64,000 nucleotides of DNA from Schmidtea polychroa (lineage: Eukaryota). Below, piece after piece: positions 22,336 through 40,269 of this stretch; the first letter of the stretch is position 1; every line of letters begins with the position of its first letter. The notes under the pieces are model-generated. The model was not told the origin of the DNA, did not search any database, and saw only the letters and a list, made by a program, of their open reading frames with translations. The position numbers were made by a program, and so were the translations under genes. The DNA lies in the NCBI GenBank assembly GCA_044892525.1, contig CM097885.1:1116001-1180000 (forward strand), written 5' to 3'.

Positions 22336-22369
22336 CAAAAACGCCATCGCTCTGATAGACAACTTACCC

Positions 22370-24474
22370 GTAAAGGCAAAGAATTCAATGTTTGACTGCT
22401 TTAGCTAAAGAATCATTAACAAATTCAAAAGAATCAATTCTTTTGCCTAATTGCGCAATCAAAGAAATAAATTTTTCAGTCGTTATTGGGATGCAACCTT
22501 AAGTCTAAATTTTAAATTTATTTAATCCGTATTTAAGTATATGATGCATATCGTATCCCTTCAAGTTGTGAAATACGATAGGCAAAATTTTATTTATTTT
22601 CTTATTTTTGTTATATGTGCTACAAGCTGCATCCAAATATTTCCCCGTAAAATGATCGTGATCTCTAACAGGATCAACGATAGATTTCATACAAAGATAA
22701 CAAACAGATGCACTAACAAATTGACGTTGTTTAATTTTCGTTAATTTAATCATAGGTTTCCTACCCATTTTATAATAAAAAGGAAGAACCTTATTTAATG
22801 CTATATCCTCTATAGCACTTAAAAAACTTTCGACGCAATCTAAACCTATGAACTGTTGATAAGATTTAGATACGTCAAAGTTATTTACAAGTAAAAGACC
22901 AGCAGATATTGTCATGTGTCGTTGGAAATGAACATTATCAGAAGGTAAAATAGCCTCAAAATCGGCATCAACTACAAAAGGAGGAGTTACTGTTTTCGAC
23001 CAGTCAGTAAACTGCAGTAATTTATTTTGAGGGAAAGTGTAAAGAGTTGTTCCTAATTGATTACGTTTACATAATATTTCATGTTTTTCCAGTGCGTGTT
23101 TGTACCTAAACATATTCAAACACCGATGGCACCATAATGAACGTATGCGTGTAGGACAACTAGTGTTGATACCACAATTCAGTAACCTATTTAAATTACT
23201 TATAGCAACGTAATGGAAATTGTTTCCTTTATTTAAAAGTAGTAAATTAATTACAGTTCCATTTAAAACTTTGGAACGATGTATAATATCTAAATGTGGA
23301 TGTTTTAATACATAATTATCAATTAATTGTTTGCTATTATCATATGAAAAAAAATTAATTATTAAACCCGAATTTTTAGATTCAAATTTCCTAATGTCTT
23401 TTAATTTCATACGTAATTCTAACGGGTCGTATACTAAGTCAGATAAATTATAACTCGATGTCCTATCTCTAGCATAACTACTAACTTCATCATATTTTAA
23501 AATAGCTAAAATGCTATATAAAAAACATGAATCATCAGTGTTTTTTATATTAATTAAACGATATTTATTTTTTAGATAAGTAGGTGTTTCAATGAAACTC
23601 CTACTACTTAATCTACTTAACCTACTTATTTTTGTTATGGTGAAATGTATTTCAGTAATATTTTTTATATTCCAACTGCTTCCTAACTCAGTAATATTAG
23701 TAATTTTCTCATTTAATTCTTTAATGCCTTCATCAAAAAATGATGCAGTTAAAGGCTTTGCCAAATTTGAGATATTATTAACCTTTATTTCCCCGTCTTT
23801 TTCAAATTCGATTGTTATTCCGAATTGAATTTTGACGGAGCCTTATTCGTTAATAATATCTCGTAATTTTATTATTAGTTGTTCAGGAAATATTACTTCT
23901 TTTATATTTAAGTCGCTGTATTTAGGCTTAATATTTGATGGGTACCCCTTAAATCTCTTTGTGCTGTCGGTACATTTCCACCTATTTGTATTATATTTAA
24001 TCCATCCCAAGAATCAAAGGAAGTGAATAATCCATCATTGTATTCAACAACCAATCCGACCTGGGATTCAACAAAAGGCAATCCGACCTGGGATTCAACA
24101 ACCAATCCATCATTGGATTCAACAAAAGGCAATCCGACCTGGGATTCAACAAAAGACAATCCGTCCTGGAATTCAACCTCTAATCCGACCTGGGATTCAA
24201 AAGAAGAAGTATCTAATTTAATTTTTTTATTTGTATTATTTTTTTCTATAGTTGATGGTCTTTTAAAAACACTATCTTTTTTAAAATTAAACCTATCTAA
24301 ATGATTTTTATGTTTATTATAAAAAACGCTATATGTTACAGGGTCACTAGTCTTACATACGGGACATATAAAATAAGTTTTATTATAATATTTTTTCGTG
24401 TAGTAATTCTCCATTATAGAAATGGCAATTATTATCATGTTCTTTCGATGAACAATAATTTGGATAAAGTATAC
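22370..24474 (-). pseudogene. pPolB copy D (N-terminal region, Exo I, endonuclease VII-like insert, Exo II)
   Basis: INIKNTDDSCFLYSIL, HYVAISNLNRLL, CHRCL, (D)ADFEAIL, CYLC..RDHDHFTGKY..AAC, VFHNLKGYDMH; frameshifts. Confidence 0.88.
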
Positions 24475-24489
24475 CTATAAAATAAAAAT

Positions 24490-25275
24490 TTAAATAACGT
24501 CATCGATATCGATATCATATTCTCCAAAATCTTCTCCAACATCTTCAATAAATTCTTCCTTATCTTCTCCAACATTTTCATCAAATTCATCTCCAACAAT
24601 TTCTCCAACATTTTCTCCAACAATTTCTCCAACATTTTCGCCAATATTTAATTCACTTAATCTTACATGCCTATATGCAAGACTAGTATTTTTCCCCACC
24701 CAAACCCTTTTGTCATCTTTGTTAGTTAGTGCTATTTTATTATTTTTAATTGTAAAAATTTGATGATTTTTGTTTGTTAATTTTGTTTGAGGAATCGAAA
24801 AAATTTGATTAGTTTTATAACAATCCAGGTATGACTGATGTTTTATGTCACTACCTTTCAATGTTACACCTTTAGCCTTTTTTGTTTCTTCATCACCCAA
24901 CAAGCTATAACACTTGGGTCTAAGAAAAACCCATTCCTTATATTTAAGACCTTTATTCTCGTCTTTGAACTATCCAATGACAGAATCAAGGTTCTTACTA
25001 TATAACGAATGACAACTTTTGTAATCGAAGTATGTAATAAATTATCTCGAATCATTGCAGGTAAAAGAACCTCAAGTTTACAGTTAATGACTTCGAGGAA
25101 AAAAGAGTCTGTATCACCTGCAACGATATTAATTTTATTAACAAATTGATAAAAATCAATGAATCTTAAGCTTATTTTGCCTAAATGCGCAATCAAAGAA
25201 ATAAATTTTTCAGTCGTGATTGGGATGCAACCTAAAGTCCAATTTTTAAATTTGTTTAAACCATATTTAAGAATA
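24490..25275 (-). pseudogene. pPolB copy E (C-terminal part with large internal deletion)
   Basis: RFID.YQFVN fused to KINIVAGDTDS; KKAKGV, DDKR, acidic tail. Confidence 0.85.
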
Positions 25276-25762
25276 AAATTTTATGTATCCTTTCCTTTGT
25301 TGTTGTGATTATTATTATTATTATTAATATTATTATTATTATTATTATTAATATTATTATTATTAATATTATTATTATTAATATTATTAATATTATTATT
25401 ATTATTATTAATATTATTATTATTGTGAAAAATATTATTATTTTTAATTAATTTTATTATTATTCGAATAAATATTATTATTTGTAACATAAAGACTGCC
25501 TTTGCCTGAAGCATGCACAGTGCAAGTTAACAAAGGCATGACTAACAAAGACAGTCACATGTAATTTTGAGTGATTTACATTACATACATGCATGCGTGT
25601 GATTGGTTGAGAGAGTAAAATATTCAATGTATATGTGTGTGTGTCTATATTCTCATTGGCTGGGACAGGAAAATATTCATTCTCTTTATAAACATTGACA
25701 AATCTAAAATTTGTCACAATTATTTTGAAATTTTGAAAATCAATTTGAAAAAAAAAACCAAA

Positions 25763-27014
25763 ATGGAAACCAACAATAATAATAATAATCGAGTATTGAG
25801 AGGTCTTTTGACTAACGGTAAATTATTATTATTTTTATTCGATTTTTATTATATTTTATTCTAGGACCGTTCGACTGGTATGAAGTTACCGAAAACGATG
25901 CCATTTTAAATGTGGAAAATATCTTTGGTAAATTTAATATTTTAATTTTTATTAAATTAATTTTCATTACAGAAAATGATAATAGCGACGATGATGTCGT
26001 TTTTCTTGGTCAAACGGCTGCCCCAGTTATTGATGTTGGGCAAAACAATGTTTTCAAAGAAAAAAGTACATTTATTTTATTTTAATTTTTATTAAATTAA
26101 TTTTCATTACAGAAAATGAAAATAGCGACGATGATGTCGTTTTTCTTGGACAAAGTGATGCCCCAGTTAATGATGTTGGGCAAAACAAGGTTATCAAAGA
26201 AAAAAGTAAATTTTTTTTACTTTAGTAATTTATTTTTAAAAATTTTATTTTTTAGCGTTTAATGTTTCAAATGCCCCTTATTTCAATGTCGACATCGATG
26301 AAGACGAAAATAATAATAGTATGGAAGATTTTATGGAAAATGACTCTTCAAAGGTATCGGAAAATGAGTCTTCTGATGTGGTGGACCGAATTCCTCATGA
26401 CTCTTCGGAGGATGATTCTGACATTGAATCACAATGTAAGATATATTTATTTATTTTATATATATATATTTTTTTTTTGATATTAAAATTTCGTAAACAC
26501 TTTTTTAAATATTTTTGATGAAAATTTCTTAAATATTTTGATGAACCTTTTGATCAAACTTATGAAGAAAATGAATTATGAATTTATGAAGAAAATGATT
26601 TATGCCCAAATTATGAAGAAAATGATTTATGCCCAAATTATGATGATTTATGATTTATGCCCAAATTATGAAGAAAATGATTTATGCCCAAATTATGATG
26701 ATTTATGATTTATGCCAAAATTATGAAGAAAATGATTTATGCCCAAATTATGAAGAAAATGATTTATGCCCAAATTATGATGATTTATGATTTATGACCA
26801 AAATTATGATGAAAATTATGATGAAAATGATTTATGACCAAAATTATGATGAAAATATGACCAAAATTATGATGAAAATGATGAAAATATGACGAAAATT
26901 ATGAAGAAAATACTATGTTTTTGAAATATAATCAAAGTATTTAAAAAAGTGATTACAAAATTATAGTTATAAAATAAATCCTTGTAGTTTGCAATGTGCA
27001 TCTACAATAGTTAA

Positions 27015-27096
<82 letters not shown>

Positions 27097-27462
27097 TTAA
27101 TAATAATATTATTAATAATGTAGTCTACAGTAAGCATGTAGCTACATAGTAGTCTGCAGTGGGCATGCAGCTACTTCTCTTTAATATAAATAATAATAAT
27201 GTAGTCTACAGTAAGCATGTAGCTACATAGTAGTCTGCAGTGGGCATGCAGCTACTTCTCTTTAATATAAATAATAATGTATTCTACAGTAAGCATGTAG
27301 CTACATAGTAGTCTGCAGTGGGCATGCAGCTACTTCTATTTAATATAATAATAATATAATAATAATAATAATAATATAAATAATCTGACCCTTCTACTGT
27401 AGTCTGCAGTGAGCATGCAGCTACATAGTAGTCTGCAGTGAGCATGCAGCTACTTCTCTTCA

Positions 27463-27511
<49 letters not shown>

Positions 27512-29694
27512 CTGACTCGTCTAATATTTAACATATTCATATAATAATCTGACCTATCTACTAAAATCTCTCTAATATTCTCTCGAATATATTAACCTAT
27601 TTTCTATAAGGATTTATCATCATTTGTTATATAGTTCATTTGAATTAAATAACAAATGATGATAAATCCTTATAGATGTAACAATTAATAACAATTAGAA
27701 AAAGAATAAAACTTTAATTTTATTATTTAACAGGTAGACTATATCCGAACTATTGTCAAACATCAATTGGACATAGCGATAAATGTCATCGAACAATGAA
27801 AAAGTATTATAGAAAGACGTTTAATTCGCTCAACTTTTTTATATGCCCCAAATGTGTAACGAGCGAAAAAATAAAATATAGGGAATTTTTTAATAAACAT
27901 CATAGTCACTTAGGGCAATTTTCGATATCAAAAAATGTTTTATTTAAAAAAATAAATAAAAAAAAATTACAAAAAAATTTATCAAAAAATTTACCAAAAA
28001 ATACTATTAAAAAAGATATAAAAAAAGATATTAAAAAAGATTTAAAAAATATTAAAAAAAATATTATAAAAGAAAAAACAGATTCTATTAAAAAAGATGC
28101 TATTATTATTAAAAAAGATACTATAAATATTATTAAAAAAGATATTATAAATATTAAAAAAGATTCTATTAAAAGACCTGCTGGTTTAATTAAAAATTGC
28201 ATTCCTAATAAATTATCGCGACCTGAAGTGATAGTCATCAGCAAAGATGAATGTGTAGCTTCAACATCGTTCACACAGCATGCACCCTCTACACAACAAG
28301 CACCCTCTACACAACAAGCACCCTCTACACAACAAGAAGTGATAGTCATCAATGATGAATGTGTAGCTTCAACGTCTTTCAACATATGTCAAATAGGCGG
28401 CTCTTTGTTTGAACCTATGGTAGAATCCGATTTGAACGGATCGCGTAAAACTTTAAAATTTGATATTAGAAATCAAAACTTAGTAAAAATAGCCCTAACA
28501 TCAAAAATTGAAGATAGATTAATAGAGGAAATAGAAAAGATGGGCAATGTAAAAATTCAATTCACAATTTTAATTAAATTTGAAAAAGATGGGGAGATCC
28601 GGGATAATTATTTTTCAAACAATGCTCAAGTTTTTACATCAAACTTTATAAACGAGGGGGTGAGCAAATTAAATGAAAAGATTGAGCAATTCACCTATTT
28701 AGGAAGCGGGTGGCGAGTAATGAATATTTTAGAAATAGATTTTATTTTAACGAAATACGCACCCGTTAGTAGATTATCCGGACATAGCTATATAAAAACC
28801 CCATCAGCATTAAAATTAAAACATGCAATAATTAATGTTAAAAACAACGACCATAAGTGCTTCTTGTATAGCATTCTTGCACTTTTAAAAAGAGAAGAAA
28901 TAGGTCGTAATCACCAAAGAGCCGCTAAATATATAGAATTTTTACCTCTATTAAATTATGACGAAGACAGCGATTGCCCGATGAGGCTATGCAACATTCC
29001 CAAATTTGAAAGAAAAAATAGAGATTTAAACTTGAGCATAAACGTTCTGTCTTATAATCCAGCCAGTTCTGATTTAGATATTTCTGAGGATTATGTAGCT
29101 CACCACCCTCATTTTAATATAGTACATCGCTCCAAGGTTATAGACGGTAGACCAATTTATTTATTACTTTTGAGTAATAAAAATAAATATCATTATACAG
29201 CCGTGACAGACTTGGACAAATTAATGAATTGTCATGAAAATGAAAATGTAAATGTTCAAATAAGGTGTAACTGGTGCCCACATTGCTTAAATGGCTTTAG
29301 ATATAAGAATGCTTTCGATCAGCATGTTGCTCTATGCTGTAAAAATCAGACTGGCACAACTTTGTATACACTTCCTAAAAATAAAGATTTATTATTCACA
29401 GATTACGCAAAAACCGTTACACCTCCCTTCGTAATTTATGCCGATTTTGAATCGGTTTTACCAGAACATGAAACATATCATCAAATACATTTACCCATAT
29501 CAGCAGGTCTTTTATTAATTAATAATTATACACACACTAAATTTTATTATTATTTTTTTGGACCTAATTGTATTTTGGATTTTTTGAGGAAAGTGGAGGA
29601 AATTGCTGTCACAATTGTCCTGCCATATTACGAACTTGAAGGTCATAAAGGCATGTCCGATGATTTAATGAACTCGTGCTCAATTTATATATAA
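25763..29694 (+). CDS. Six-exon Polinton-type pPolB gene (copy F, distinct paralog), 3'-truncated after Exo I
   Basis: Exons 25763-25817, 25865-25927, 25973-26065, 26113-26205, 26256-26435, 27734-29694 join in frame via GT-AG phase-1 introns; GSGW, INVKNNDHKCFLYSILA, HY, CPHCL, VIYADFES. Confidence 0.8.
26559..26910. repeat. Intronic minisatellite, ~27-bp core TTATGAAGAAAATGATTTATGCCCAAA
   Basis: Directly visible tandem copies decaying toward the right. Confidence 0.9.
27118..27460. repeat. Intronic array of ~80-bp units, each a dimer of GTAGTCT(A/G)CAGTRRGCATG(C/T)AGCTAC, embedded in (TAA)n
   Basis: Four units visible with AT-rich spacers. Confidence 0.9.
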
Positions 29695-29721
29695 AGACTA
29701 ATTTTCATAAATGATTTAATA

Positions 29722-30159
29722 ATGTTAGCAAATATAAATTATCGAGGAAATTTTGATGTATCGAATATGAGGTTCCCACCAGGGAAACCCCAGCAAATTA
29801 TCGATAGAAGTGGGAAATATCCGATAATATTTTTCAAGACTGGTAAATGCCGAATCATGGGATGTAAGAAACCTTTGGATATTAATAAATTACAATATCG
29901 AATAAATAATATTACAATCCAATCAATTACCGTTACTATGGATATGGGACATAGTATCAATCTATATAACATGTCGAAAAAATGTGATTGTATGTTTGAA
30001 CCGGAATTGTTTCCGGCACTAAGACTATTAAAATATAACCCTATATGTGTCAACGTGTTTGCTAGTGGAAATGTTGTCATGTTGGGGTTGAGAAATTTGG
30101 AGTATAGAGAATTTGTTGACAATGTTCGAAATGAGATAATTTCATTGGTCGATTTCTAA
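29722..30159 (+). CDS. Divergent TATA-binding-protein-like protein (core fold only, 145 aa)
   Basis: Two TBP repeats: NINYRG..IIFFKTGKCRIMG and IQSITVTMD..INL..FEPELFPAL..VNVFASGNVVMLG. Confidence 0.85.
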   Translation: MLANINYRGNFDVSNMRFPPGKPQQIIDRSGKYPIIFFKTGKCRIMGCKKPLDINKLQYRINNITIQSITVTMDMGHSINLYNMSKKCDCMFEPELFPALRLLKYNPICVNVFASGNVVMLGLRNLEYREFVDNVRNEIISLVDF

Positions 30160-30235
30160 TTGGTTAATTTCTTATTGGTTATTGATTGATTTAAACAAAC
30201 GGTTTTTGTTTAGAATTCATTTTTTTTTCAACATC

Positions 30236-30590
30236 ATGTACAAATTACCAAGCTCTGCAAACCTCATGAAGGATATCGACGATTACGGTAAATTTTAAAT
30301 TTTTATTTTCACATTATTTACTATTTATTATTTTAGAAAAATATTTAGATGTAATGATCAATACACTCAAATACTATTATCCTCAAATTATTGAAATCAT
30401 CAAGGATCGAGAAGCAGAAATAATTCCGGACCTCATTTTCTACTCAACCCAAATAAGAATTATGGAGGTATTCCATCAATTCTTATGGGATATAAAGATT
30501 AACAGAACAGTGAAAGAAATGAAGCCGGAATATCAATGTATGTTCGGATGTTCCTGCTGTGCCGATCGATATCGGCGATATGTGGAATGA
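30236..30590 (+). CDS. Hypothetical two-exon protein with C-terminal Cys cluster (CMFGCSCC)
   Basis: Exon 30236-30287, 49-nt GT-AG intron, exon 30337-30590 in frame; AATAAA downstream. Confidence 0.6.
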
Positions 30591-30930
30591 AAGTTAGTGA
30601 AAACTCTGAGAAGGTTTCACTACTCCCGGATTGTAGATAAATATCAATAAATGTATTTTTGTATTGAGTTTTTTTTTTATATTTGATGTAGAATTAGAAA
30701 TAATAATAATAATAATAATAATATAAATAATAGAATTAGAAATAATAATAATAGAAGTAATGATAGTAATAATAAAACATTAATAATATGTACATTAATA
30801 GAACATAAATGCAGCATTAATGCAAATGAAATGCAAATTTAAACAAAGACATACTGTAATCTGATTGGTTGATAGGCATGAGTCAAAGGTATAAAAACCC
30901 TGTAACATTTAAATTTATTCATTATTCACG

Positions 30931-31341
30931 ATGACCAAGAAAATTTCAAGCACCGAAAAACCTAAAGAAATGGTACAACCAGTTCAAATGTTCCACAACT
31001 ACAAAATGTATTTTTTGAAAGAAGAAATCAATATGAAATTGGTTGCACCAGTCAAGCTAATTCCGACTAAATTCGAATTCTTATCCGGCACGCTTTCAAT
31101 GATTGATGTCAAAACTATTGATGATGTTTTTAAACGGATAGATTCGAATCTATCGTGTAATCAACATGCATGGTTCAACAATAGATATGCAAGATTTTAT
31201 GATGCTTTTGATGAAATCAGTTTCAAAGAAAATGAAAATTGGTATATAACAATAGCAATCCAGGGATATAAAGTTGATAATAATGATGTATATTCTCCTA
31301 TTTGGAAAATTATGTCTGCTAGACTTTCACAAGTATTTTAA
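30931..31341 (+). CDS. Hypothetical 136-aa protein, possible OB-fold ssDNA-binding protein
   Basis: CCAAT box, TGAGTCA and TATAAAA upstream, AATAAA downstream, paralog fragment at 10618-10755; function is inference only. Confidence 0.65.
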   Translation: MTKKISSTEKPKEMVQPVQMFHNYKMYFLKEEINMKLVAPVKLIPTKFEFLSGTLSMIDVKTIDDVFKRIDSNLSCNQHAWFNNRYARFYDAFDEISFKENENWYITIAIQGYKVDNNDVYSPIWKIMSARLSQVF

Positions 31342-31467
31342 TGTTATATTTAATAAATGTATTAGTCAGATTTGTTTTTCTCTTTATTAATTGCAACATA
31401 AATGCAAATGACATGCAAATTTAACAAAGAAAATCTATAAACAAAATTATAATATAGTCTTAAAGTG

Positions 31468-31853
31468 ATGAAAATGACTGCAGAAAAAGGTTAACATGAT
31501 TAATTAATTACCGAATTATTTATTATTTAGAATTTTTAATCAACTTTTTGTTGGAAAAGTTACCAGAAATATCTGGTGTGAAAATTGAGGACATATTATC
31601 TATTACAAATGCCTTAAATATCGGCTGGTTAGTTGAGAGTCAAGATACAGGATTTGATGATGAGGAAGAAACTCAAGAAACCGATACTCAAGAAATTGAT
31701 GAGGAAATCTATGAACCTATAGATGAACCTATAGAGGAACCTATAGAGGAACCTATAGAGGAATCTAAAGATAATATTACGAATGATTGTATTGATCATG
31801 TCGTTGAAAATATAATGAAATGTGGAGATGACGACTGCGAATGTGTTAATTAA
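31468..31853 (+). CDS. Hypothetical two-exon highly acidic protein with (EEPI)n repeats
   Basis: Exon 31468-31489, 41-nt GT-AG intron, exon 31531-31853 in frame. Confidence 0.6.
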
Positions 31854-31936
31854 TAAATCTTAGTTAATTAGTGTTTGTAAATTTATTTAAAATGTTATTT
31901 AAAAATTTATTTAAAAATCAAACAAAAATAACTATA

Positions 31937-32457
31937 TTAATTTTTATTTAAAAATCTGGTTAATATATACAAAATAGCAACACCTGTTGCAAGTTTTACA
32001 TAGTTTTTAAATTTTCTTTTCTGATCATCAATTTCCTTCGCATTTCTGGCGAGTTGATTGAGTAGTCCCCATCCGCCATTGGCTTCAATCCATGGTTGAA
32101 ACTTTGACTTGATTATCTAGAAAATAAATATTAATAAAATATAAATTATAAAAGTATTACTTCTTGAGACCACTGATAATAGTGCTCTGAGTCCCATAGA
32201 CTTCTTTGGATTATTATTTTCATATAAGCGAACCCTACTAGTATTCGGGTCCACTTCATCTGATCGTCGCATAGACAGTTAAAAATTCTATTAAAATAGA
32301 ATTTTTTGGTTTCGAGACAATCAGAATTGATCACATCTTCATAATCAATGTGATTACCTTCTATAATCTTTTCGGTCTGATCGACCAGGAAACATAGGCT
32401 TTCCATAATATTCCTGTTGACGAGTTCTCTTAAAAGATTTTCCATAAATTGAGACAT
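31937..32457 (-). CDS. Bcl-2 family protein, two exons (32457-32161, 32116-31937), 158 aa
   Basis: BH1-like LCDDQMKWTRILVGFAY, 44-nt GT-AG intron, BH2 FQPWIEANGGW, C-terminal anchor KLATGVAILYILTRFLNKN. Confidence 0.85.
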
Positions 32458-32562
32458 TTTTACAATAATTTAAAATATGATGTTTTATTTATACTAATAC
32501 CGGATGATTTTGATTGGTTGATAGACTATAAATGTAAAAGAAAGGTTTTGATTTGATACACC

Positions 32563-33060
32563 ATGAAAACTATATTCATATTGCTAATTATTATAACGAG
32601 TGTGTGCTCACACAATACAACAATAACAGTGGAGTCTTTTAATAAATCAATATGTGTTTGTCCGAATACAGCCAAGTTGATGGATATTTTATATATTCTG
32701 GACAAACCAAAATGGTCAAAGCATCCAGGAAAAAGAATATCTCAAAGATTGGAGAATTTAGAAAACAGTTATGAACTATCATTTGAATATATACAAAATA
32801 TAAAATTTGAATTGATTGATCATATTAAGGTTTTCAATAACTCTATTGTTGAAAATAAAATGAATATGAAAATAATTGATAAGAAGCATGATTATTTGTA
32901 AAAAAAGATTGAATTATTATTAAGAAAAATTCAAACAATCAAAGGATCAATAGAATCTCTGAAAATCAATTCTACGTTACCAATTTCAAACAATATTGCT
33001 GCGAATAGTACATCAATATTTAGTTTACCTTTGTTAATTTTACATTATTTTATTGTTTAA
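32563..33060 (+). pseudogene. Secreted/surface coiled-coil glycoprotein with one in-frame stop (32899-32901)
   Basis: Signal peptide MKTIFILLIIITSVCS, several NxS/T sites, frame stays open after the TAA to hydrophobic tail SIFSLPLLILHYFIV. Confidence 0.6.
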
Positions 33061-33180
33061 ATAAATGTATGTTTTGTTGATTTGTTGAGCGTGACCAGTA
33101 CCTTTGTGAGCATTACCCATAGGGGGACAAAATATTTTGTCGGATAGACTAGGAGTATATAGACTCGGAGTATATAGATT

Positions 33181-33227
<47 letters not shown>

Positions 33228-33369
33228 TAATAATAGTAATATATGGCTCATTCGAAAGGTCTTGGATTGAGCTTTAAAATGAGCTATCGATTATTAATTT
33301 TCGTTGGCGAGAACTTTGAAAAAATTAAAAATAAAATAATAATAAAAATAATAATATTTTTTAAAAATA

Positions 33370-33910
33370 ATAATATGACCTTGGGAATTCTGATGAGTCA
33401 TCGGATGAGTCATATGACCTTGGAAATTTTCAATGAGTCATAGTATGACTCACATGACCTTGAAAATGACCTTGGTGAATCATAGGATGAGTCAGATGAC
33501 CCTGAGGAAATTTTTTCAAGGTCATATGACTCATACTATGACTCATATGTCCTTGAAAATGTCCTTGATGAGGCATAGGATGAGTCAGATGGCCTTGAAA
33601 ATTTTTTTCAAGGGCATATGAGTCATACTATGAGTCATATGGCCTTGGGAAAAAATTTCCATGGCCACATGAGTCATAGTATGAGTCATATGACCTTGAT
33701 AGTGACCTTGATGAGTCATGGACTTTGTTTAAATGACCTTGAAAAATTTTTTTGACCTTGATGAGTTATATTATGAGTCATACGACCTTGAAAATGACCT
33801 TGATGAGTCATAGGATGAGTCATGGTCTTTGTTTAAATGGCCTTGAGAAATTTGATGAGTCATACTATGAGTCATGGTCTTTGTTTCAATGACCTTGATG
33901 AGTCATATGT
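33370..33910. repeat. Subterminal array of TGA(G/C)TCA pairs and TGACCTTG motifs
   Basis: More than 15 TGAGTCA/TGACTCA, often paired 12 bp apart, interleaved with TGACCTTGA. Confidence 0.9.
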
Positions 33911-33949
33911 CTTTGTTTTACTTTTAGACTTAGCATATTTTTGAAAAAT

Positions 33950-33996
33950 ATGACGACCGGGGGGGTACTGTGCTAGCGGTGCCCAATCCATCTACT
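33950..33996 (-). other. Candidate Polinton-type terminus (5'-AGTAGATGGATTGGGCACC.. on the minus strand)
   Basis: GC-rich block ending CATCTACT, abutting (ATA)n; AGTAG start resembles the terminus at 18176; partner end not found. Confidence 0.45.
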
Positions 33997-34170
33997 ATAA
34001 TAATAATAATATATCAACCAAATACTATACAACACATAAAAGATTAACTAAACACATAAAAATAACTAGACACATAACAAAACATATAAACATTAACTAG
34101 ACACATAAAAAACATAAAAATTTACCAAACAAATAACAAATGTATGTATATAAACTTTTATTTAATAAAA

Positions 34171-37100
34171 TTAGTCCTCATCAGACAAAATAACGTCATC
34201 GATATCGATATCATCTTCTCCAAAATCTTCTCCAACATCTTCAATAAGTTCTTCCTCATCTTCTCCAACATTTTCACCAAATTCATCTCCAACAATTTCT
34301 CCAACATTTTCTCCAACAATTTCTCCAACATTTTCTCCAATATTTAATTCACTTAATCTTACATGCCCATTTTTTCAGCAGCTTCAGGGAAATCATCCAA
34401 CTTCTCATTTAGCTCAGAATAAATTACAAAATCAACTTCAAGAGTGTATCCATAAGACAAAGAATCAAGATTTAAATTCCTACATTCATCCATTATTAAA
34501 TCAAATCCATCAAGAACCCAACTAAATTCACCACAAGGTAATGATTGACTTAAAGCCCAACCATATAGATTATTAATACTTATATAAAGTAACTCGGTGT
34601 TCTCATCGGTTTTTACGTAATGCTAATTCACAAAAGTAATACCGCCTCTTATTCCACCCTCATAAAAGCTAAACATTTCGTTTTCAGTTATGAGCTCAAT
34701 TGGTTCATTTAAAGACATTAATGCCGAAGACCAAGACATACCTGGAATTCCGAAATAATTCAATGGTTCCAATCTATTGTGAGCAATAGATTTCAACCGA
34801 AACTGATGAAAGAAATCAGCCAAAAGAAAACAATCAAGTTTTAAGTAGATCATCATATAATCTAATAAAATTAGGCAATTAGTTTCTACCCAAATCTCCT
34901 GAGCTTTTTCATACTAAAGCTCAGTAACACCCTCCCAGATTGGTGGTAATTCATAAGTAGTTTGGAGAATATCTAAAGATGTAGCGAAATTATAAGGGAA
35001 GATTCCTTTTTCAGAAACTATAGTGCCAGAAAAAACAGAATTAGTAAAAGGCAAAGAATTCAAAGTTTTGACTGCTTTAGCTAAAGAATCATTAACAAAT
35101 TGATAAGAATCAATGAATTGATAAGAATCAATTCTTTTGCCTAAATGCGCAATCAAAGAAATAAATTTTTCAGTCGTTATTGGGATGCAACCTAAAGTCC
35201 AATTTTTAAATTTATTTAATCCGTATTTAAGTATATGATGCATATCGTATCCCTTCAAGTTGTGAAATACGATAGGCAAAATTTTATTTATTTTCTTATT
35301 TTTGTTACATGTGCTACAAGCTGCACCCAAATATTTCCCCGTTAAATGATCGTGATCTCTAACAGGATCAACGATAGATTTCATACAAAGATAACAAACA
35401 GATGCACTAACAAATTGACGTTGTTCAATTTTCGTTAATTTAATCATAGGTTTCCTACCCATTTTATAATAAAAAGGAAGAACCTTATTTAATGCTATAT
35501 CCTCTATAGCACTTAAAAAACTCTCGACGCAATCTAAACCTATGAACTGTTGATAAGATTTAGATACGTCAAAGTTATTTACAAGTAAAAGACCAGCAGA
35601 TATTGGCATGTGTCGTTGGAAATGAACATTATCAGAAGGTAAAATAGCCTCAAAATCGGCATAAACTACAAAAGGAGGAGTTACTGTTTTTGACCAGTCA
35701 GTAAACTGCAATAATTTATTTTGAGGGAAAGTGTAAAGAGTTGTTCCTAATTGATTACGTTTACATAATATTTCATGTTTTTCCAGTGCGTGTTTATACC
35801 TAAACCCATTCAAACACCGATGGCACCATAATGAACGTATGCGTGTAGGACAACTAGTGTTGATACCACAATTCAGTAACCTATTTAAATTACTTATAGC
35901 AACGTAATGGAAATTGTTTCCTTTATTTAAAAGTAGTAAATTAATTACAGTTCCATTTAAAACTTTGGAACGATGTATAATATCTAAATGTGGATGTTTT
36001 AATACATAATTATCAATTAATTGTTTGCTATTATCATATGAAAAAACATTAATTATTAAACCCGAATTTTTAGATTCAAATTTCCTAATGTCTTTTAATT
36101 TCATAGGTAATTCTAACGGGTCGTATACTAAGTCAGATAAATTATAACTCGATGTCCTATCTCTAGCATAACTACTAACTTCATCATATTTTAAAATAGC
36201 TAAAATGCTATATAAAAAACATGAATCATCAGTGTTTTTTATATTAATTAAACAATATTTATTTTTTAGATAAGTAGGTGTTTCAATGAAACTCCTACCA
36301 CTTAATCTACTTAACCTACTTATTTTTGTTATGGTGAAATGTATTTCAGTAATATTTTTTATATTCCAACTGCTTCCTAACTCAGTAATATTAGTAATTT
36401 TCTCATTTAATTCTTTAATGCCTTCATCAAAAAATGATGCAGTTAAAGGCTTTGCATAATTTGAGATATTATTAACCTTTATTTCCCCGTCTTTTTCAAA
36501 TTCGATTGTTATTCCGAATTGAATTTTGACGGAGCCTTATTCGTTAATAATATCTCGTAATTTTATTATTAGTTGTTCAGGAAATATTACTTCTTTTATA
36601 TTTAAGTTGCTGTATTTAAGCTTAATATTTGATGGGTACCTCTTAAATCTCTTTTACTGTCGGTACATTTCCACCTATTTGTATTATATTTAATCCATCC
36701 CAAGAATCAAAGGAAGTGAATAATCCATCATTGGATTCAACAACCAATCCGACCTGGGATTCAACAAAAGGCAATCTGACCTGGGATTCAACAAAAGACA
36801 ATCCGTCCTGGGATTCAACAACCAATCCATCATTGGATTCAACAAAAGACAATCCGACCTGGAATTCAACAAAAGACAATCCAGCCTGGGATTCAACCTC
36901 TTATCCGACCTGGGATTCAAAAGAAGAAGTATCTAATTTAATTTTTTTATTTGTATTATTTTTTTCTATAGTTGAGGGTCTTTTAAAAACACTATCTTTT
37001 TTAAAATTAAACCTATCTTAATGATTTTTATGTTTATTATAAAAAACGCTATATGTTACAGGGTCACTAGTCTTACATACGAGACATATAAAATAAGTTT

Positions 37101-37193
37101 TATTATAATATTTTTTCGTGTAATAATTCTCCGTTATAGAATGGCAATTATTATCATGTTCTTTCGATGAACAATAATTTGGATAAAGTATAC
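34171..37193 (-). pseudogene. pPolB copy G (N-terminus to motif A, then deletion to the acidic C-terminus)
   Basis: VYADFEAIL, RDHDHLTGKYLGAAC, FHNLKGYD, KGIFPY, YLKLDCFLLAD, GIRGGIT, INNLYGWA; deletion junction ~34368. Confidence 0.9.
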
Positions 37194-37208
37194 CTATAAA
37201 ATAAAAAT

Positions 37209-38441
37209 TTAAATAACGTCATCGCTATCGATATCATATTCTCCAAAATCTTCTCCAACATCTTCAATAAATTCTTCCTTATCTTCTCCAACATTTTCAT
37301 CAAATTCATCTCCAACAATTTCTCCAACATTTTCTCCAACAATTTCTCCAACATTTTCTCCAACAATTTCTCCAACATTTTCTCCAATATTTTATTCACT
37401 TAATCTTACATGCCTATATGCAAGACTAGTATTTTTTCCCACCCAAACCCTTTTGTCATCTTTGTTAGTTAGTGCTATTTTATTATTTTTAATTGTAAAA
37501 ATTTGATGATTTTTGTTTGTTAATTTTGTTTGAGGAATCGAAAAAATTTGATTAGTTTTATAACAATCCAGGTATGACTGATGTTTTATGTCACTACCTT
37601 TCAATGTTACACCTTTAGCCTTTTTTGTTTCCTCATCACCCAACAAGCTATAACACTTGGGTCTAAGAAAAACCCATTTCTTATATTTAAGACCTTTATT
37701 CTCGTCTTTGAACTTTCCAATGACAGAATCAAGGTTCTTACTATATAAGGAATGACAACTATTGTAATTGGAAGTATGTAATAAATTATTTCGAATCATT
37801 GCAGGTAAAAGAACCTCAAGTTTACAGTTAATGACTTCGAGGAAAAAAGAGTCTGTATCACCTGTAACGATATTAATTTTATTAACAAATTGATAAGAAT
37901 CAATGAATCTTAAGCTTATTTTGTCTAAATGCGCAATCAAAGAAATAAATTTTTCAGTCGTGATTGGGATGCAACCTAAAGTCCAATTTTTAAATTTGTT
38001 TAAACCATATTTAAGAATATGGTGCATATCGTATCTCTTCAAGTTGTGAAATACGATAGGCAAAATTTTATTTATTTTCCTATTTATGTTGCATGTGCTA
38101 CAAGCTGCACCCAAGTATTTCCCAGTAAAATGATTGTGATCTCTAACCGGATCGACGATACATTTCAAACAAAGGTAACAAACAGATGCACTATAGCACT
38201 TAAAAAACTCTCGACGCAATCTAAACCTATGAACTGTTGATAAGATTTAGATCCATCAAAGTTATTTACAAGTAAACGACCAGAAGATATTGGCATGTGT
38301 CGTTTGAAATGAACATTATCGGAAGGTAAAATAGCCTCAAAATCGGCATCAGCTACAAAAGGAGGAGTTACTGTTTTCGACCAGTCAGTAAACTGTAATA
38401 ATTTATTTTGAGGGAAGGTGTAAAGAATTGTTCCTAACTGA
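37209..38441 (-). pseudogene. pPolB copy H, multiply deleted
   Basis: ORF 37392-38219 with RDHNHFTGKYLGAAC, GDTDS, GKFKDE, LRPKCYS, KAKGV, DDKR. Confidence 0.88.
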
Positions 38442-40269
38442 TTTTTTATGTGTTTAGTTAATGTTTATATGTTTTGTTATGTGTCTAGTTATTTTTATGT
38501 GTTTAGTTAATTTTTATGTGTTGTATAGTATTTGGTTGAAATAATAATATTATTATTAATCTATAAAAAAAAATTTCATTAAAAAAATTTACTTAAAAAA
38601 TTAATCCACTAAAATTTTCGTTGAAAATTATCTTAAAAAATTTTTATTAAAGATTTTCATTAAAAAATTTCAATTCTTAATTACTGACTATTATTCCAAC
38701 TTTTTGTTAATAAATTTAAAAATCTTACTTTAATTTACTTATTACTTTAATTAAAAAATTTGAAACTTAATTTACTTATTTCAGCCCATTGATTACCAAA
38801 TATATCTATTAATTTACTTTAATTCAAAATTCTTAGCCCATAATTTACTATATTTCAATTTTTAGACCCTTAATTTACTGTAATTCAATTTTTGAACCAT
38901 CATTTACTTTAATTTTAAATTTAAGAACCATAATTTACTTTAGTTTAAAAATTTGAACCTTAATTAACTAATAAAAGTTAAATTATCATTTTCAATTAAT
39001 ATTTTACAAACATAAAATTACAATATTTGAAATTCTAAATATCTCTATTAACATGTTTGCAATTAATTTTAAAAATACAAAAATTTTACAAAATTTTCAA
39101 ATTGAATATTAAATATTTTTTTAATTTGCATTTGATAATGTTTATTCTTAATAAGATTTTCCCATGAGAAAATTCATATTTGTTTAAATGCAAAACTTTA
39201 AATTTAATTCTATAAAAAAAAATTATTTTTCAAGACGTCTAAAAGCTCTAGGACAAGAAGAAAATACAGTTTAGAAAGGTAGTGAGTGAATTTCCTAATG
39301 AATTACAGAAGGGTATAGGACAAAGTTCCAGTTCTCTATTCTCAATTTATCATCAATCAGCAGCGACATTGACAAAGTTTTTCTTAAACAAGCTGCAAAT
39401 TTATATATAAAATTACATAAAAATTGTTGATAAATTGTTAAAGTTTTAATAATATATTTCGAATAATAAAAATTTCCCTTGATAAAATTCTGAATATGAA
39501 ATAAATATTAAAAATTATATTAAAATTTAAAACTGTAAAAATTTTAAATTTTATTTATAAATTTCATTTTTAAATTGTTTTATTAATCAATTTATTAGAA
39601 AATAATCTTAATGAAGCATTTTAAGTATTATTTTAGTTTTAACTAATTTTTCTAAATTTTATTTAAATTTATTTTTGTAGTCGTTTATGATATGGAGGCC
39701 TTTAAGCAGTTAGTCTTAGTTAACGTAGCTCTCTTCGCTGGTAATAATACAAATTACCTTTTACCTTGACTGCATTGATGGAGGTGCTACTCGTCATGAA
39801 CCTACCTCATGCAGTTATCAATTTGTATGCCGAATGTACTTTACCGTCGAACTTCCTGTGGCTTCGTCATAATCATTCTTATTGGTCTAACAATGTACCG
39901 CACTACGTCGATCCCTCTTATAAGGTTTCTGAATTTCAACATTTTGCTCTTATCATAGCCCATTTTTGACTACTTTGGTGACAACATCAGAGTGCCTTCT
40001 TTTATTTTTTACCTTTTTAGGATCTGACCTTCACAGTGGATACATAAAGATTTTCAGCAAAAGCCTCAGCGATATGTAATTTCATTTATTTCCATTTTCA
40101 GCGTAGATTAGACTAGTAATGTCATGTAATTCTGAACACTTCTCATGCTTTCTTTCTTTATTTTCAATTTCTAGTTTAATATTTACATCCATCATTTTTA
40201 TTTTTATTTTTATTTTTATTCTGATATTGCATTTATTATTTCTATGTAGATAGTTTAATACCTAAATCG

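What the first reader, a model, noticed from the sequence alone, without database searches (positions are those of the whole stretch)
25763..33996. Intron-bearing Polinton-like element carrying its own TBP, a Bcl-2 homolog and other virus-style accessory genes
Seen: a pPolB gene is followed by six tightly packed small genes (TBP-like, Cys-cluster protein, putative SSB, acidic protein, Bcl-2-like, secreted coiled-coil), then a subterminal array and an AGTAG-type end. Known: canonical Polintons encode pPolB, integrase, ATPase, protease and capsids; Bcl-2 and TBP homologs are host-control genes typical of larger DNA viruses. Inference: this is one arm of an endogenous Polinton-like virus or element with basal-transcription and anti-apoptosis cargo, possibly undescribed. 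Its core was probably lost in the deletion that truncates pPolB near 29660.
Basis: partly seen in the sequence, partly recalled or inferred. Interest (0 to 1): 0.92.

Follow-up and report, generated by a model that had tools for sequence, protein, structure and literature searches.

The report
Rearranged fragment of an abundant Polinton
This stretch is a broken, rearranged piece of a virus-like jumping element (a Polinton/Maverick) present in over a thousand copies in this genome, whose family carries its own TATA-binding-like factor, a DNA-strand-binding protein and a cell-death blocker; the kind of element is known, these extras are only sketchily described.

Summary
Window 25272-33996 carries a truncated pPolB, six small genes, a subterminal repeat array and a ...CTACT end at exactly 33996.

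It is not one arm with a deletion. Full copies are about 18.7 kb, with ~1-kb TIRs and a 6-bp TSD. Their order is TIR, RING gene, pPolB(-), spliced acidic gene(-), 5.4-kb core(-) with protease, MCP-like, penton-like, integrase and ATPase, then the TBP block(+) and TIR. In the window the pPolB piece is inverted and joined bluntly at 29657|29658 to the TBP block. Core, pPolB C-half and left TIR are missing. This junction occurs only 4 times, all in segmental duplicates on C1.

- **TBP-like gene:** real (Pfam 2e-14; fold TM 0.79 to TBPs). It is a conserved gene of a broad Polinton clade, not one-off cargo.
- **"Putative SSB":** resembles viral gp2.5-type SSBs (Z about 7).
- **Bcl-2 homolog:** real, with a 44-nt intron; BH2 and a membrane tail lie in exon 2.
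- **Introns:** two further accessory genes have short in-frame GT-AG introns; core genes have none.

Adintovirus papers already report Bcl2 and IAP homologs and a "TBP" label. I file this as a new member of a known kind, of moderate interest.

The parts
22391..25275 (-). Fragment of a second, distinct pPolB-bearing element family ('family B'). It is a direct repeat of 35067-38019 and forms the left flank of the composite.
   Evidence: Direct repeats D3, D4, D8, D9, D12 and D16 at 86-98% identity. pPolB region about 66% nt identical to family A.
25272..25275 (.). Left junction. The 4-nt AATA is shared by the family-B sequence and the family-A sequence. In full copies this point lies at the stop codon of the protease gene.
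   Evidence: Three-way comparison.
25763..26435 (+). Five-exon acidic gene upstream of and co-directional with pPolB. Exons: 25763-25817, 25865-25927, 25973-26065, 26113-26205, 26256-26435. Exons 3 and 4 with their introns form a 140-bp tandem duplication.
   Evidence: Four GT..AG introns of 47, 45, 47 and 50 nt. The spliced frame has 161 codons without a stop; unspliced, it stops at codon 33. Tandem repeat 25938-26224. No RNA evidence.
26555..27520 (.). Tandem arrays (27-nt and 81-nt units) and (AAT)n microsatellites between the acidic gene and pPolB.
27796..29657 (+). First 620 codons of pPolB, cut before the EndoVII-like insert and the polymerase motifs. The ORF reads on by chance to 29694.
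   Evidence: Full form in L019:1808-5896(-).
29657..29658 (.). Blunt junction between the inverted pPolB piece and the TBP block. In full copies 29658 lies in the ~100-bp divergent spacer between the ATPase and TBP-like genes.
   Evidence: Of 40 scored matches to a 200-nt junction probe, 4 span it (all C1 0.64-1.36 Mb, one being the window) and 36 match only the right half. Sequence comparison.
29722..30159 (+). Compact TBP-like protein, 145 aa. Repeat 2 is complete; repeat 1 is reduced to strands.
   Evidence: Pfam PF00352 E 2e-14. PDB TBPs at 1e-8. Model pLDDT 95.7. Foldseek gave 44 PDB hits at E<=0.001, with TBP-containing entries filling the listed ranks down to 44 and TMq up to 0.79.
30354..30590 (+). 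Cys-cluster ORF, 78 aa here and 98 aa in the C2 copy. Function unknown.
   Evidence: No Pfam hit. Atlas uninformative.
30931..31341 (+). OB-fold protein resembling viral gp2.5-type ssDNA-binding proteins.
   Evidence: Model pLDDT 91. VIA-align top four: ASFV CP312R Z 7.4, DUF2815 Z 7.2, phage Enc34 SSB Z 7.1, T7 gp2.5 Z 6.9; the next row is 5.5. Relatives lie within 1 kb of the TBP-like gene in 19 of the 20 metagenome loci that have it.
31468..31853 (+). Acidic protein gene with a C-terminal Cys cluster and one 41-nt intron (31490-31530).
   Evidence: splice sites and frame read by eye; ORF.
31937..32457 (-). Bcl-2 homolog, 158 codons when spliced. Exon 1 is 32457-32161, the intron 32160-32117 (44 nt), exon 2 32116-31937. 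Exon 2 carries a WIEANGGW BH2-type motif and a hydrophobic tail.
   Evidence: Bcl-2 is the only Pfam family hit by either exon, colinear on the profile: positions 12-66 at E 0.005 and 86-100 at E 0.33. PDB profile search gives Bfl-1/A1 at E 0.026-0.04. Atlas: Bcl-2 clusters score 0.93 with 205 shared features, 18 of 30 hits.
32563..32901 (+). 112-aa ORF with a hydrophobic, signal-peptide-like N-terminus. Function unknown.
   Evidence: Only a weak coiled-coil-type Pfam hit at E 0.047.
33016..33996 (.). Right terminal inverted repeat: tandem array 33375-33906 and terminus ...AATCCATCTACT at 33996.
   Evidence: Matches both TIRs of the C2 full copy. Termini. Motif counts.
33997..38533 (-). Family-B element fragment forming the right flank. 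pPolB pieces at 34623-36536 and 37392-38246; inverted terminal arrays at 34031-34140 and 38442-38533.

Best explanation
Window 25272-33996 is a dead, rearranged fragment of a very abundant, young family of Polinton/Maverick elements of the adintovirus-like type.

**The intact form (shown).** It is about 18.7 kb, bounded by ~1-kb inverted repeats made of tandem arrays. Its ends read 5'-AGTAG...CTACT-3' and it inserts with a 6-bp target duplication. Gene order is:
1. left TIR;
2. RING-finger gene;
3. pPolB;
4. a spliced acidic gene;
5. a 5.4-kb morphogenesis and integration core: adenain-type protease, 427-aa MCP-like ORF, small ORF, 360-aa penton-like ORF, rve integrase with chromodomain, Lys-rich ORF, A32-like ATPase;
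6. on the other strand, the accessory block seen in the window: TBP-like, Cys protein, SSB-like, acidic protein, Bcl-2 homolog, ORF with a signal-peptide-like N-terminus;
7. right TIR.

**The window copy (shown).** The N-terminal 46% of pPolB with its upstream gene has been inverted and joined without homology to the start of the accessory block. The core, the pPolB catalytic half, the RING gene and the left TIR are gone. The composite lies between fragments of a second Polinton family, and the whole nest was copied four times by segmental duplication.

**How the family works (inferred).**
- It is transcribed in the nucleus by host Pol II, because three accessory genes need splicing.
- The compact TBP-like protein nucleates initiation on the element's own AT-rich promoters.
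- pPolB replicates the linear genome by protein priming from the TIR ends, with the gp2.5-like SSB coating displaced strands.
- The membrane-anchored Bcl-2 homolog, and probably the RING protein, hold off host-cell death.
- Capsid, ATPase and protease build particles.
- The integrase inserts the DNA.

The window copy itself cannot move. Its small ORFs remain open apart from the shortened Cys ORF.
For: **Copy number**
- 1,460 first-look candidates for the TBP gene; 40 of 40 scored are 99-100% identical.
- MCP-like ORF: 98 scored of 5,096 candidates, 96 without a stop, 98-100% aa identity.

**Canonical architecture**
- In 6 of 6 copies read with 20-30 kb of context, the window's 25272-29657 lies on the opposite strand, 5.39-5.48 kb upstream of 29658-33984.
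- The C2 copy spans 18,739 bp with ~1-kb TIRs at 78-80% identity and AACAAA on both flanks.
- Core genes: Peptidase_C5 at 27.1 bits, above its cut-off; rve E 9.6e-6; Chromo E 3.3e-4; Pox_A32 E 0.005; RING zf-C3HC4_3 E 1.5e-9.
- The order INT, minor capsid, small ORF, major capsid, protease equals that given for vertebrate Mavericks, which also have AGT/ACT-type ends, 6-bp TSDs and TIRs of 46-1,447 bp (PMC8097293, passages).

**Junctions**
-.
- Segmental duplicate at 95-99% identity over window 23991-38188.

**TBP-like**
-.
- 108 relatives of 96-232 aa (most 144-165 aa) at 37-97% identity.
- Next to the ATPase (within 2 kb) in 25 of the 27 loci that hold an ATPase.
- Kept even where MCP identity falls to 26-28%.

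**Other accessory genes**
- SSB-like.
- Bcl-2.
- Introns.
- No intron in the ATPase: 5 of 6 copies are contiguous.
Against: - No RNA evidence. No run on record as RNA holds the stretch, and the contigs laid showed no listed joint at the predicted introns. Splicing and expression are inferred from sequence only.
- The MCP and penton labels rest on position, size and conservation. There was no Pfam hit and no PDB sequence hit, alone or as a profile, and no fold was predicted for them.
- The rve, Chromo and A32 hits are below Pfam gathering scores.
- The window's own pPolB piece and the full 1,362-aa frame do not reach PF03175 in hmmscan. The family assignment comes from its homologs' precomputed domains.
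- Each Bcl-2 exon alone is below Pfam's cut-off, and an exhaustive phmmer search found only one relative.
- SSB-like Z-scores of about 7 lie in the range the tool calls 'middling'.
- A TSD was read for one copy only.
- The order of rearrangement events cannot be reconstructed.
Confidence: 0.88

Rival explanations
1. One reading: one contiguous arm of the element (pPolB followed by accessory genes), whose core was lost in a simple internal deletion near 29660.
For: The breakpoint is real and the core is absent.
Against: In 6 of 6 full copies pPolB is on the opposite strand, at the other arm. Its 5' end, not its 3' end, faces the core. A deletion alone cannot put truncated pPolB head-to-tail with the TBP gene; an inversion or a join between two inverted copies is needed.
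Confidence: 0.04
2. The TBP-like and Bcl-2-like genes are host genes that merely lie beside transposon debris at this locus.
For: Both have cellular homologs, and the Bcl-2-like gene has an intron.
Against: There are more than a thousand near-identical copies. In 6 of 6 full copies examined they lie inside TIR-bounded elements. TBP-like relatives in metagenomes sit next to Polinton core genes.
Confidence: 0.01
3. Same element, different role for the TBP-like protein. It acts as a decoy that sequesters host TFIIB, TAFs or TATA boxes and shuts down host Pol II/III transcription, or represses the element itself, rather than activating the element's promoters.
For: Repeat 1 lacks both helices in the model. 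From recalled knowledge, those surfaces in cellular TBP contact partners, so the protein may bind DNA but recruit differently.
Against: None is direct. Long-term conservation next to the packaging ATPase across a clade fits either role.
Confidence: 0.25
4. The 29657|29658 junction is an assembly artefact in a repeat-rich region.
For: The region is a nest of repeats with thousands of near-identical copies elsewhere.
Against: The same junction stands at four places on C1. One paralog has diverged 1-5% from the window over about 14 kb that includes both junctions. A chimeric join would not be copied with divergence.
Confidence: 0.03

Closest known systems
Vertebrate Mavericks/Polintons (Barreat & Katzourakis 2021, PMC8097293; passages read)
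   Same: - pPolB, ATPase, integrase, minor capsid, small 'PW'-position ORF, major capsid and protease, in the same local order.
- TIRs of hundreds of bp.
- 6-bp TSD.
- AGT.../...ACT-type end motif.
- Accessory regions flanking the core.
- Intronless core genes.
   Different: - Here almost all core genes and pPolB share one strand.
- The accessory block holds TBP-like, SSB-like and Bcl-2-like genes.
- Three accessory genes carry short introns; that paper reports no introns in the genes of the intact elements.
- Copy number is in the thousands with near-identical ORFs; that paper found 96% of loci degraded.
Adintoviruses (Starrett et al. 2021, PMC8502044, passages and section 3.4; Buck et al. 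preprint, PMC11071296, passages)
   Same: - Adenovirus-like morphogenesis genes plus an rve integrase with a C-terminal chromodomain.
- Acidic genes upstream of PolB, in the position of 'Oncoid' genes.
- Bcl2 and IAP homologs are reported for adintoviruses.
[quoted passage not shown] 5 legend for related MELD viruses.
   Different: - An OTU-like domain in PolB was not detected here by Pfam.
- Hexon similarity to the reference adintoviruses could not be tested.
- The papers do not describe, in the text I could read, a conserved compact TBP plus SSB module or spliced accessory genes.
- Their figures and Supplementary Figs S1 and S2 were not available to me and may show more.
Adenoviruses (functional analogy; recalled knowledge)
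   Same: - Protein-primed pPolB replication from inverted terminal repeats, helped by a virus-coded ssDNA-binding protein.
- Adenain protease and a packaging ATPase.
- A Bcl-2-like death blocker (E1B-19K). The Atlas also lists a Preplasmiviricota cluster that mixes Adeno_E1B_19K and Bcl-2.
   Different: - Adenoviruses have no integrase.
- Their DBP is not gp2.5-like.
- They encode no TBP of their own.
TBP-like and gp2.5-like SSB proteins of large DNA viruses
   Same: - SSB-like fold: best PDB match is ASFV CP312R. There are 20 BFVD matches at E<=0.001; those that carry an organism name (15 of the 20) are giant-virus proteins.
- Virus-coded TBP-like factors are known in giant viruses (recalled). 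One IMG/VR contig holds a 25%-identical relative.
   Different: Here both genes sit in an 18.7-kb integrating element that is transcribed in the nucleus. The TBP-like protein is shorter (145 aa) than cellular TBP cores (about 180 aa).

Membership tests
Polinton/Maverick | [quoted passage not shown] | tested here: met
   The full copy has a 1,362-codon frame. It has 4,854 homologs at E<=1e-10 of 7,999 scored, many with precomputed PF03175 and PF02945; one is named 'DNA polymerase type B, organellar and viral' by its source. The window copy keeps only codons 1-620. Direct hmmscan of this protein did not reach PF03175.
Polinton/Maverick | Retrovirus-type (rve) integrase | tested here: met
   Full copies only. 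Pfam rve E 9.6e-6 (26.2 bits, under the 32.6 cut-off) and rve_3 E 0.009. 32-58% aa identity to ORFs in 18 of 80 metagenome loci. Absent from the window copy.
Polinton/Maverick | Terminal inverted repeats and a 6-bp target site duplication | tested here: met
   TIRs of about 1 kb at 78-80% identity in the C2 copy. AACAAA on both flanks of that copy. A TSD was read for one copy only. The window copy has the right end only.
Polinton/Maverick | Morphogenesis module: double-jelly-roll MCP, penton, packaging ATPase, adenain-like protease | tested here: inconclusive
   Protease: Peptidase_C5 at 27.1 bits against a cut-off of 21.3. ATPase: Walker-A region with Pox_A32 E 0.005. The MCP-like (427 aa) and penton-like (360 aa) ORFs are labelled by position, length and conservation. 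There was no Pfam or PDB sequence hit, and no fold was predicted.
Adintovirus (definition quoted in PMC11071296) | [quoted passage not shown] | tested here: inconclusive
   No OTU hit in Pfam at E<=10 for window 28735-29262 or 27796-28764. Cys-box-like and His-box-like motifs were seen by eye only.
Adintovirus | rve integrase with a C-terminal chromodomain | tested here: inconclusive
   Pfam Chromo E 3.3e-4, 20.9 bits against a cut-off of 25.1, at residues 346-377 of 382.
Adintovirus | Hexon reciprocally recognisable by BLASTp with the reference Alpha/Beta adintoviruses | not testable with these tools
TATA-binding protein family (PF00352) | Two TBP repeats forming the saddle fold | tested here: met
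   Repeat 2: Pfam 53.6 bits against a cut-off of 22.9. The whole model aligns to TBP cores with TMq 0.67-0.79. Repeat 1 is shortened to four strands without helices, so this is a reduced version of the fold.
TATA-binding protein family (PF00352) | Binding of TATA-type DNA and recruitment of TFIIB-type factors | not testable with these tools
   Only conservation is shown: F97 and F113 are invariant and F38 nearly invariant in 33 sequences. That these are the DNA-kinking phenylalanine positions is recalled, not tested.
Bcl-2 family (PF00452) | BH1-BH2 helical core | tested here: inconclusive
   Each exon hits only PF00452, colinear, at 17.8 and 12.0 bits against a cut-off of 31.4. PDB profile search gives Bfl-1/A1 at E 0.026. 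Atlas score 0.93 with 205 features. The KWTRI (BH1-like) and WIEANGGW (BH2-like) motifs were read.
Bcl-2 family (PF00452) | C-terminal membrane anchor | tested here: met
   Exon 2 ends in a hydrophobic stretch followed by basic residues (translation read). No transmembrane predictor was run.
T7 gp2.5-type viral SSB | OB fold with an inserted helix, as in gp2.5, Enc34 SSB and ASFV CP312R | tested here: inconclusive
   Z 6.9-7.4 to exactly these four entries, with the next row at 5.5. Foldseek probability 0.95 but E 0.055. The tool warns that Z under 8 may reflect only a common arrangement.
T7 gp2.5-type viral SSB | Acidic C-terminal tail (a recalled hallmark of gp2.5) | tested here: not met
   The 136-aa protein and its 15 aligned relatives end without an acidic tail. 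The claim is therefore 'works like an SSB of this fold', not membership.

The most novel reading that the evidence does not exclude
A compact TBP-like factor paired with a gp2.5-type SSB is a previously unrecognised, conserved module of a wide, largely metagenomic clade of Polinton/adintovirus-like viruses. On this reading, 15-20-kb integrating nuclear viruses bring their own basal transcription factor, something otherwise associated with giant viruses. This genome also holds thousands of near-identical copies with open capsid genes and spliced, host-adapted accessory genes (Bcl-2 homolog, acidic proteins). That would point to a very recent or ongoing invasion.
Probability: 0.4. Interest if true: 0.7.

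Novelty: new member of a known kind. Interest (0 to 1): 0.5.

Why it matters
- **Annotation of this genome.** More than a thousand TBP-like and Bcl-2-like ORFs belong to one transposon/virus family and should not be annotated as host genes. The family may make up several percent of the assembly.
- **Polinton biology.** The data give a concrete, testable gene set for three steps that are poorly understood in these elements:
  - who starts transcription (a virus-coded reduced TBP);
  - what coats the displaced strand during protein-primed replication (a gp2.5-type SSB);
  - how the host cell is kept alive (a Bcl-2 homolog and a RING protein).
- **Conservation.** The TBP-like gene stays next to the packaging ATPase across relatives whose capsid proteins are only about 27% identical. 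This suggests it is a functional part of the lineage and not passing cargo.
- **Introns.** They are confined to accessory genes, which shows which genes were probably taken from, or adapted to, a spliceosome-rich host.

Tried and rejected
- **RNA support.** No RNA holder was listed. I laid four contig-only runs of unknown or guessed type. No joint at the predicted introns appeared in the rows shown, though 26 rows were not shown. One contig of run X1 ends exactly at the exon-2 boundary 32116, which proves nothing.
- **IMG/VR scan for TBP-like relatives.** One distant locus at 25% identity.
- **Bcl-2 exon 1 searches.** The word-indexed search found only its own cluster. The exhaustive phmmer search found one relative at 63% identity.
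- **ATPase intron hypothesis.** Rejected. The two overlapping frames in the C2 copy come from a short deletion private to that copy; 5 of 6 copies are contiguous.
- **Penton intron hypothesis.** Likewise rejected; 5 of 6 copies have one 356-360-aa frame.
- **OTU domain in pPolB.** Not found by Pfam.
- **MCP against PDB by sequence and by profile.** Nothing.
- **Cys-cluster protein.** No Pfam hit and no Atlas lead.
- **Short host introns nearby.** My regex test returned nothing and was dropped, so I make no claim about host intron sizes.
- **Names of relatives.** Cluster look-up gave no organism names. The host organism was not identified.
- **Earlier findings of this scan.** Nothing by place, sequence or words.
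- **Literature.**
  - 'polinton' + 'TATA-binding protein': 5 papers, none about a Polinton TBP judging by titles and abstract starts in the listing.
  - 'polinton' + 'TBP': 6 papers; only the adintovirus paper and its preprint are relevant.
  - 'adintovirus' + 'Bcl-2': 0 papers.
  - One badly framed search was useless.
  - 'Schmidtea'/'Polinton'/'Maverick': nothing specific (passages concern LTR elements).
  - No mention of TBP or Bcl in the nematode, vertebrate or capsid papers (passages).

Full report
**1. What is in the window**

The window lies in a 781-Mb, AT-rich eukaryotic assembly with four chromosome-scale contigs, at C1:1116001-1180000. I did not identify the organism.

- a long ORF, 27796-29694 (+), that is the N-terminal part of a protein-primed family-B polymerase;
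- a TBP-like ORF, 29722-30159 (Pfam TBP E 2e-14);
- a Cys-cluster ORF, 30354-30590;
- a 136-aa ORF, 30931-31341;
- an acidic ORF ending at 31853;
- a Bcl-2-like gene on the minus strand, 32457-31937;
- an ORF with a hydrophobic N-terminus, 32563-32901;
- a tandem array, 33375-33906;
- an end reading ...AATCCATCTACT at 33996.

**2. The block is a high-copy repeat, and the window copy is rearranged**

A 501-nt probe from the TBP-like gene gave 1,460 first-look candidates in the genome. All 40 scored were 99-100% identical and lay on C1-C4.

With 20 kb of the window as query, 11 of 13 long matches to the accessory block began exactly at window 29658. The pPolB side (25272/25308-29657) matched elsewhere as a separate piece that ended exactly at 29657.

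A 200-nt probe across 29657|29658 matched end to end at only 4 of 40 scored places: C1:640777, 1017285, 1145558 (the window itself) and 1358619. The other 36 matched only the right half.

One of those paralogous places aligns with window 23991-38188 at 95-99% identity. The rearranged structure was therefore copied by segmental duplication within the first 1.4 Mb of C1. That also argues against a misassembly.

**3. The intact element**

I fetched 20-30 kb around seven other copies. In all six that carry the accessory block on the plus strand, the window's 25272-29657 lies upstream on the opposite strand. Its 25272 end is 5.39-5.48 kb from base 29658.

The C2 copy is 18,739 bp long. It has ~1-kb inverted repeats at 78-80% identity built from the same tandem array, and AACAAA directly outside both ends.

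All 11 termini read end in AATCCAT(C/T)TACT and are followed by unrelated sequence. That count is nine from other copies, the window, and its paralog. Nine of the 11 have an extra 16-nt duplicated unit that the window and its paralog lack.

ORFs of the full copies, with Pfam results, run from the left TIR as follows:
- a RING-finger ORF (zf-C3HC4_3, E 1.5e-9);
- pPolB, a 1,362-codon frame with an EndoVII-like insert;
- the spliced acidic gene;
- then, all on the same strand:
  - an adenain-type protease (Peptidase_C5, 27.1 bits, above its cut-off);
  - a 427-aa ORF;
  - a 124-129-aa ORF;
  - a 356-360-aa ORF;
  - an integrase (rve E 9.6e-6, Chromo E 3.3e-4);
  - a 179-aa Lys-rich ORF;
  - a 222-aa ATPase (Walker A region, Pox_A32 E 0.005);
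- then the accessory block on the other strand and the right TIR.

The local order integrase, minor capsid, small ORF, major capsid, protease is the order described for vertebrate Mavericks. So are the AGT/ACT-type ends, the 6-bp duplication and the TIR length (PMC8097293, passages). I label the 427-aa and 360-aa ORFs as capsid proteins on that positional basis only. Neither Pfam nor PDB sequence or profile searches hit them.

Individual copies carry private lesions. In the C2 copy the ATPase and penton-like frames are interrupted and the small ORF is missing.

Across the genome the 427-aa ORF had 5,096 first-look candidates. Of 98 scored, 96 had no stop and were 98-100% identical. Accessory-block copies range from 89 to 99% nucleotide identity, so insertions of several ages exist, many of them young.

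**4. Anatomy of the window copy**

- **Left junction (25272-25275).** Four bases, AATA, are shared between a fragment of a second Polinton family and the family-A sequence. In full copies this point lies at the protease stop codon.
- **Middle junction (29657|29658).** It is blunt, with no shared bases. On the pPolB side it falls after codon 620. On the other side it falls in the ~100-bp divergent spacer between the ATPase and TBP-like genes.
- **What is lost.** Relative to the accessory block, the pPolB piece is inverted. The core, the catalytic half of pPolB, the RING gene and the left TIR are absent from the whole window. Only one terminus motif occurs in the window.
- **How it arose.** At least two non-homologous joins are needed, for example an inversion followed by a deletion, or joins between neighbouring inverted copies. 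Their order cannot be told.
- **Consequence.** This copy cannot transpose. Its TBP-like, SSB-like, Bcl-2-like and hydrophobic-N-terminus ORFs are open. The Cys ORF ends 20 codons early compared with the C2 copy.

**5. The accessory genes**

*TBP-like protein*
- PDB TBPs match at E about 1e-8.
- A model built on 33 sequences has pLDDT 95.7.
- Foldseek finds 44 PDB chains at E<=0.001. TBP-containing entries fill the listed ranks down to 44, with TMq 0.67-0.79.
- The second repeat is complete (strand, helix, four strands, long helix). The first repeat is cut down to four strands.
- The protein has 108 relatives at E<=0.001 of 112 candidates. Their lengths run from 96 to 232 aa, most between 144 and 165 aa, and they are 37-97% identical.
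- In 80 metagenome loci fetched with the family alignment:
  - 51 hold another gene of this element and 38 hold a core gene;
  - 14 of the 16 loci of 5 kb or more hold a core gene;
  - the ATPase lies within 2 kb in 25 of the 27 loci that have one;
  - the 29 loci with only the TBP-like gene are short (median 1.7 kb).
- The gene is kept in relatives whose MCP-like protein is only 26-28% identical. It is therefore a conserved gene of a clade, not cargo of one element.

- Relatives lie within 1 kb of the TBP-like gene in 19 of 20 loci.
- The model has pLDDT 91.
- An all-against-representatives structural search puts four viral ssDNA-binding proteins on top: ASFV CP312R Z 7.4, DUF2815 Z 7.2, phage Enc34 SSB Z 7.1 and T7 gp2.5 Z 6.9. 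Generic OB folds follow at 5.5 or less.
- Foldseek agrees weakly.
- 20 predicted viral proteins match at E<=0.001. Those that carry an organism name (15 of the 20) come from giant viruses.
- It lacks an acidic tail.
- I read it as an SSB of that fold, with moderate confidence.

*Bcl-2 homolog*
- Exon 1 has 99 codons and carries a BH1-like KWTRI segment that aligns to Bfl-1/A1.
- After a 44-nt GTAATA...TTCTAG intron, exon 2 continues in frame with a WIEANGGW BH2-type motif and a hydrophobic C-terminal stretch.
- Bcl-2 is the only Pfam family hit by either exon, and the hits are colinear on the profile.
- The protein-language-model atlas puts Bcl-2 clusters first: score 0.93, 205 shared features, 18 of 30 hits.
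- Sequence relatives are almost absent. None of the 80 metagenome loci has the gene. It is therefore lineage-specific.

*Introns*
- The gene starting at 25763 has four GT..AG introns of 45-50 nt. Removing them gives 161 codons without a stop; unspliced, the frame stops at codon 33.
- The acidic gene has one 41-nt intron.
- Core genes have none.
- None of this is confirmed by RNA.

**6. How it most likely works**

*Shown*
- the architecture, ends and target duplication;
- copy number;
- gene content;
- the folds of two accessory proteins.

*Inferred from the families involved*
- transcription in the nucleus with splicing of accessory genes;
- promoter recognition by the TBP-like factor on the element's AT-rich spacers;
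- protein-primed, strand-displacing replication by pPolB from the TIR ends, assisted by the SSB-like protein;
- delay of host-cell death by the membrane-anchored Bcl-2 homolog and possibly the RING protein;
- particle assembly by capsid proteins, ATPase and protease;
- integration by the rve integrase, with the chromodomain steering it to chromatin.

A rival role for the TBP-like protein, as a decoy or repressor, cannot be excluded.

**7. Comparison with what is known**

- The element meets the defining features of Polintons/Mavericks: pPolB, rve integrase, TIRs, 6-bp TSD and size. Two caveats apply. The integrase hit is below Pfam's cut-off, and the capsid labels are positional.
- It resembles adintoviruses in having a chromodomain integrase, acidic genes upstream of PolB, and Bcl2- and IAP-type genes. 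I could not show an OTU domain and could not test hexon similarity.
- Starrett et al. state that adintovirus homologs of Bcl2 and IAP were observed. [quoted passage not shown] 5 (PMC8502044; preprint). The figures and supplements were not visible to me.
- My searches and the passages read did not turn up three things: a compact TBP-like gene as a conserved, syntenic Polinton gene; a gp2.5-type SSB next to it; or introns in Polinton accessory genes. The vertebrate study reports no introns in the genes of the intact elements.

**8. Verdict**

The finding is real and well observed. The locus itself is a dead, rearranged fragment, and the kind of element is well known, with the 'surprising' genes partly anticipated in print. 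What remains of interest is the conserved TBP-like and SSB-like module, the spliced accessory genes, and the scale and youth of the family in this genome.

- Interest: 0.5.
- Novelty: new member of a known kind.

Noticed in passing
window 21197-25275 and 33997-38533: Fragments of a second pPolB-bearing element family. It is about 66% nt identical to family A in pPolB and has its own inverted terminal arrays (34031-34140 and 38442-38533). These fragments flank the composite as direct repeats. Matches to 33999-37212 were seen only in the first 1.4 Mb of C1 among the candidates scored.
   Followed up: partly
window 12092-13229: A second cluster of the TIR-array motifs, with 6 ATGAGTCAT and 5 TCAAGGTCA, but without the terminus motif. 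It is probably a stray terminal-array fragment of the same or a related family.
   Followed up: no
window 33375-33906: The TIR array is built from ATGAGTCAT (16 copies) and TCAAGGTCA (8 copies). From memory these resemble AP-1/GCN4-type and NR5A/ERR-type binding sites. They could be enhancer or replication-origin elements.
   Followed up: no
L027:4403-5551 (C2 copy) and the same gene in other copies: An in-frame AT-rich trinucleotide microsatellite inside the integrase core encodes a run of about 35-40 Ile (or Leu in another frame). Its length varies between copies.
   Followed up: no
window 33955-33962 and the same place in other copies: A G-run just inside the terminus varies from about 6 to 14 G among the 11 ends read.
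   Followed up: no
window 25938-26217: A 140-bp tandem duplication corresponds exactly to one exon plus one intron of the acidic gene upstream of pPolB. The gene has gained an exon by unit duplication.
   Followed up: partly
window 30070-30072 (TBP-like residue 117): The window copy has Asn where the C2 copy and at least 90% of 33 family members have Lys, in the conserved SGK motif.
   Followed up: no
L019:378-926 (C2 copy, left arm): A 182-aa ORF with a C-terminal RING of the type found in IAPs (zf-C3HC4_3, E 1.5e-9). No BIR domain was detected. One metagenome locus (L064) has a relative.
   Followed up: partly
pPolB, L019 residues 661-694; window 34914-36536: A His-Me/EndoVII-like insert sits inside pPolB (Pfam PF02945, E 0.0057 in family A and 3.4e-4 in family B). 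Many relatives share it, by their precomputed domains.
   Followed up: no
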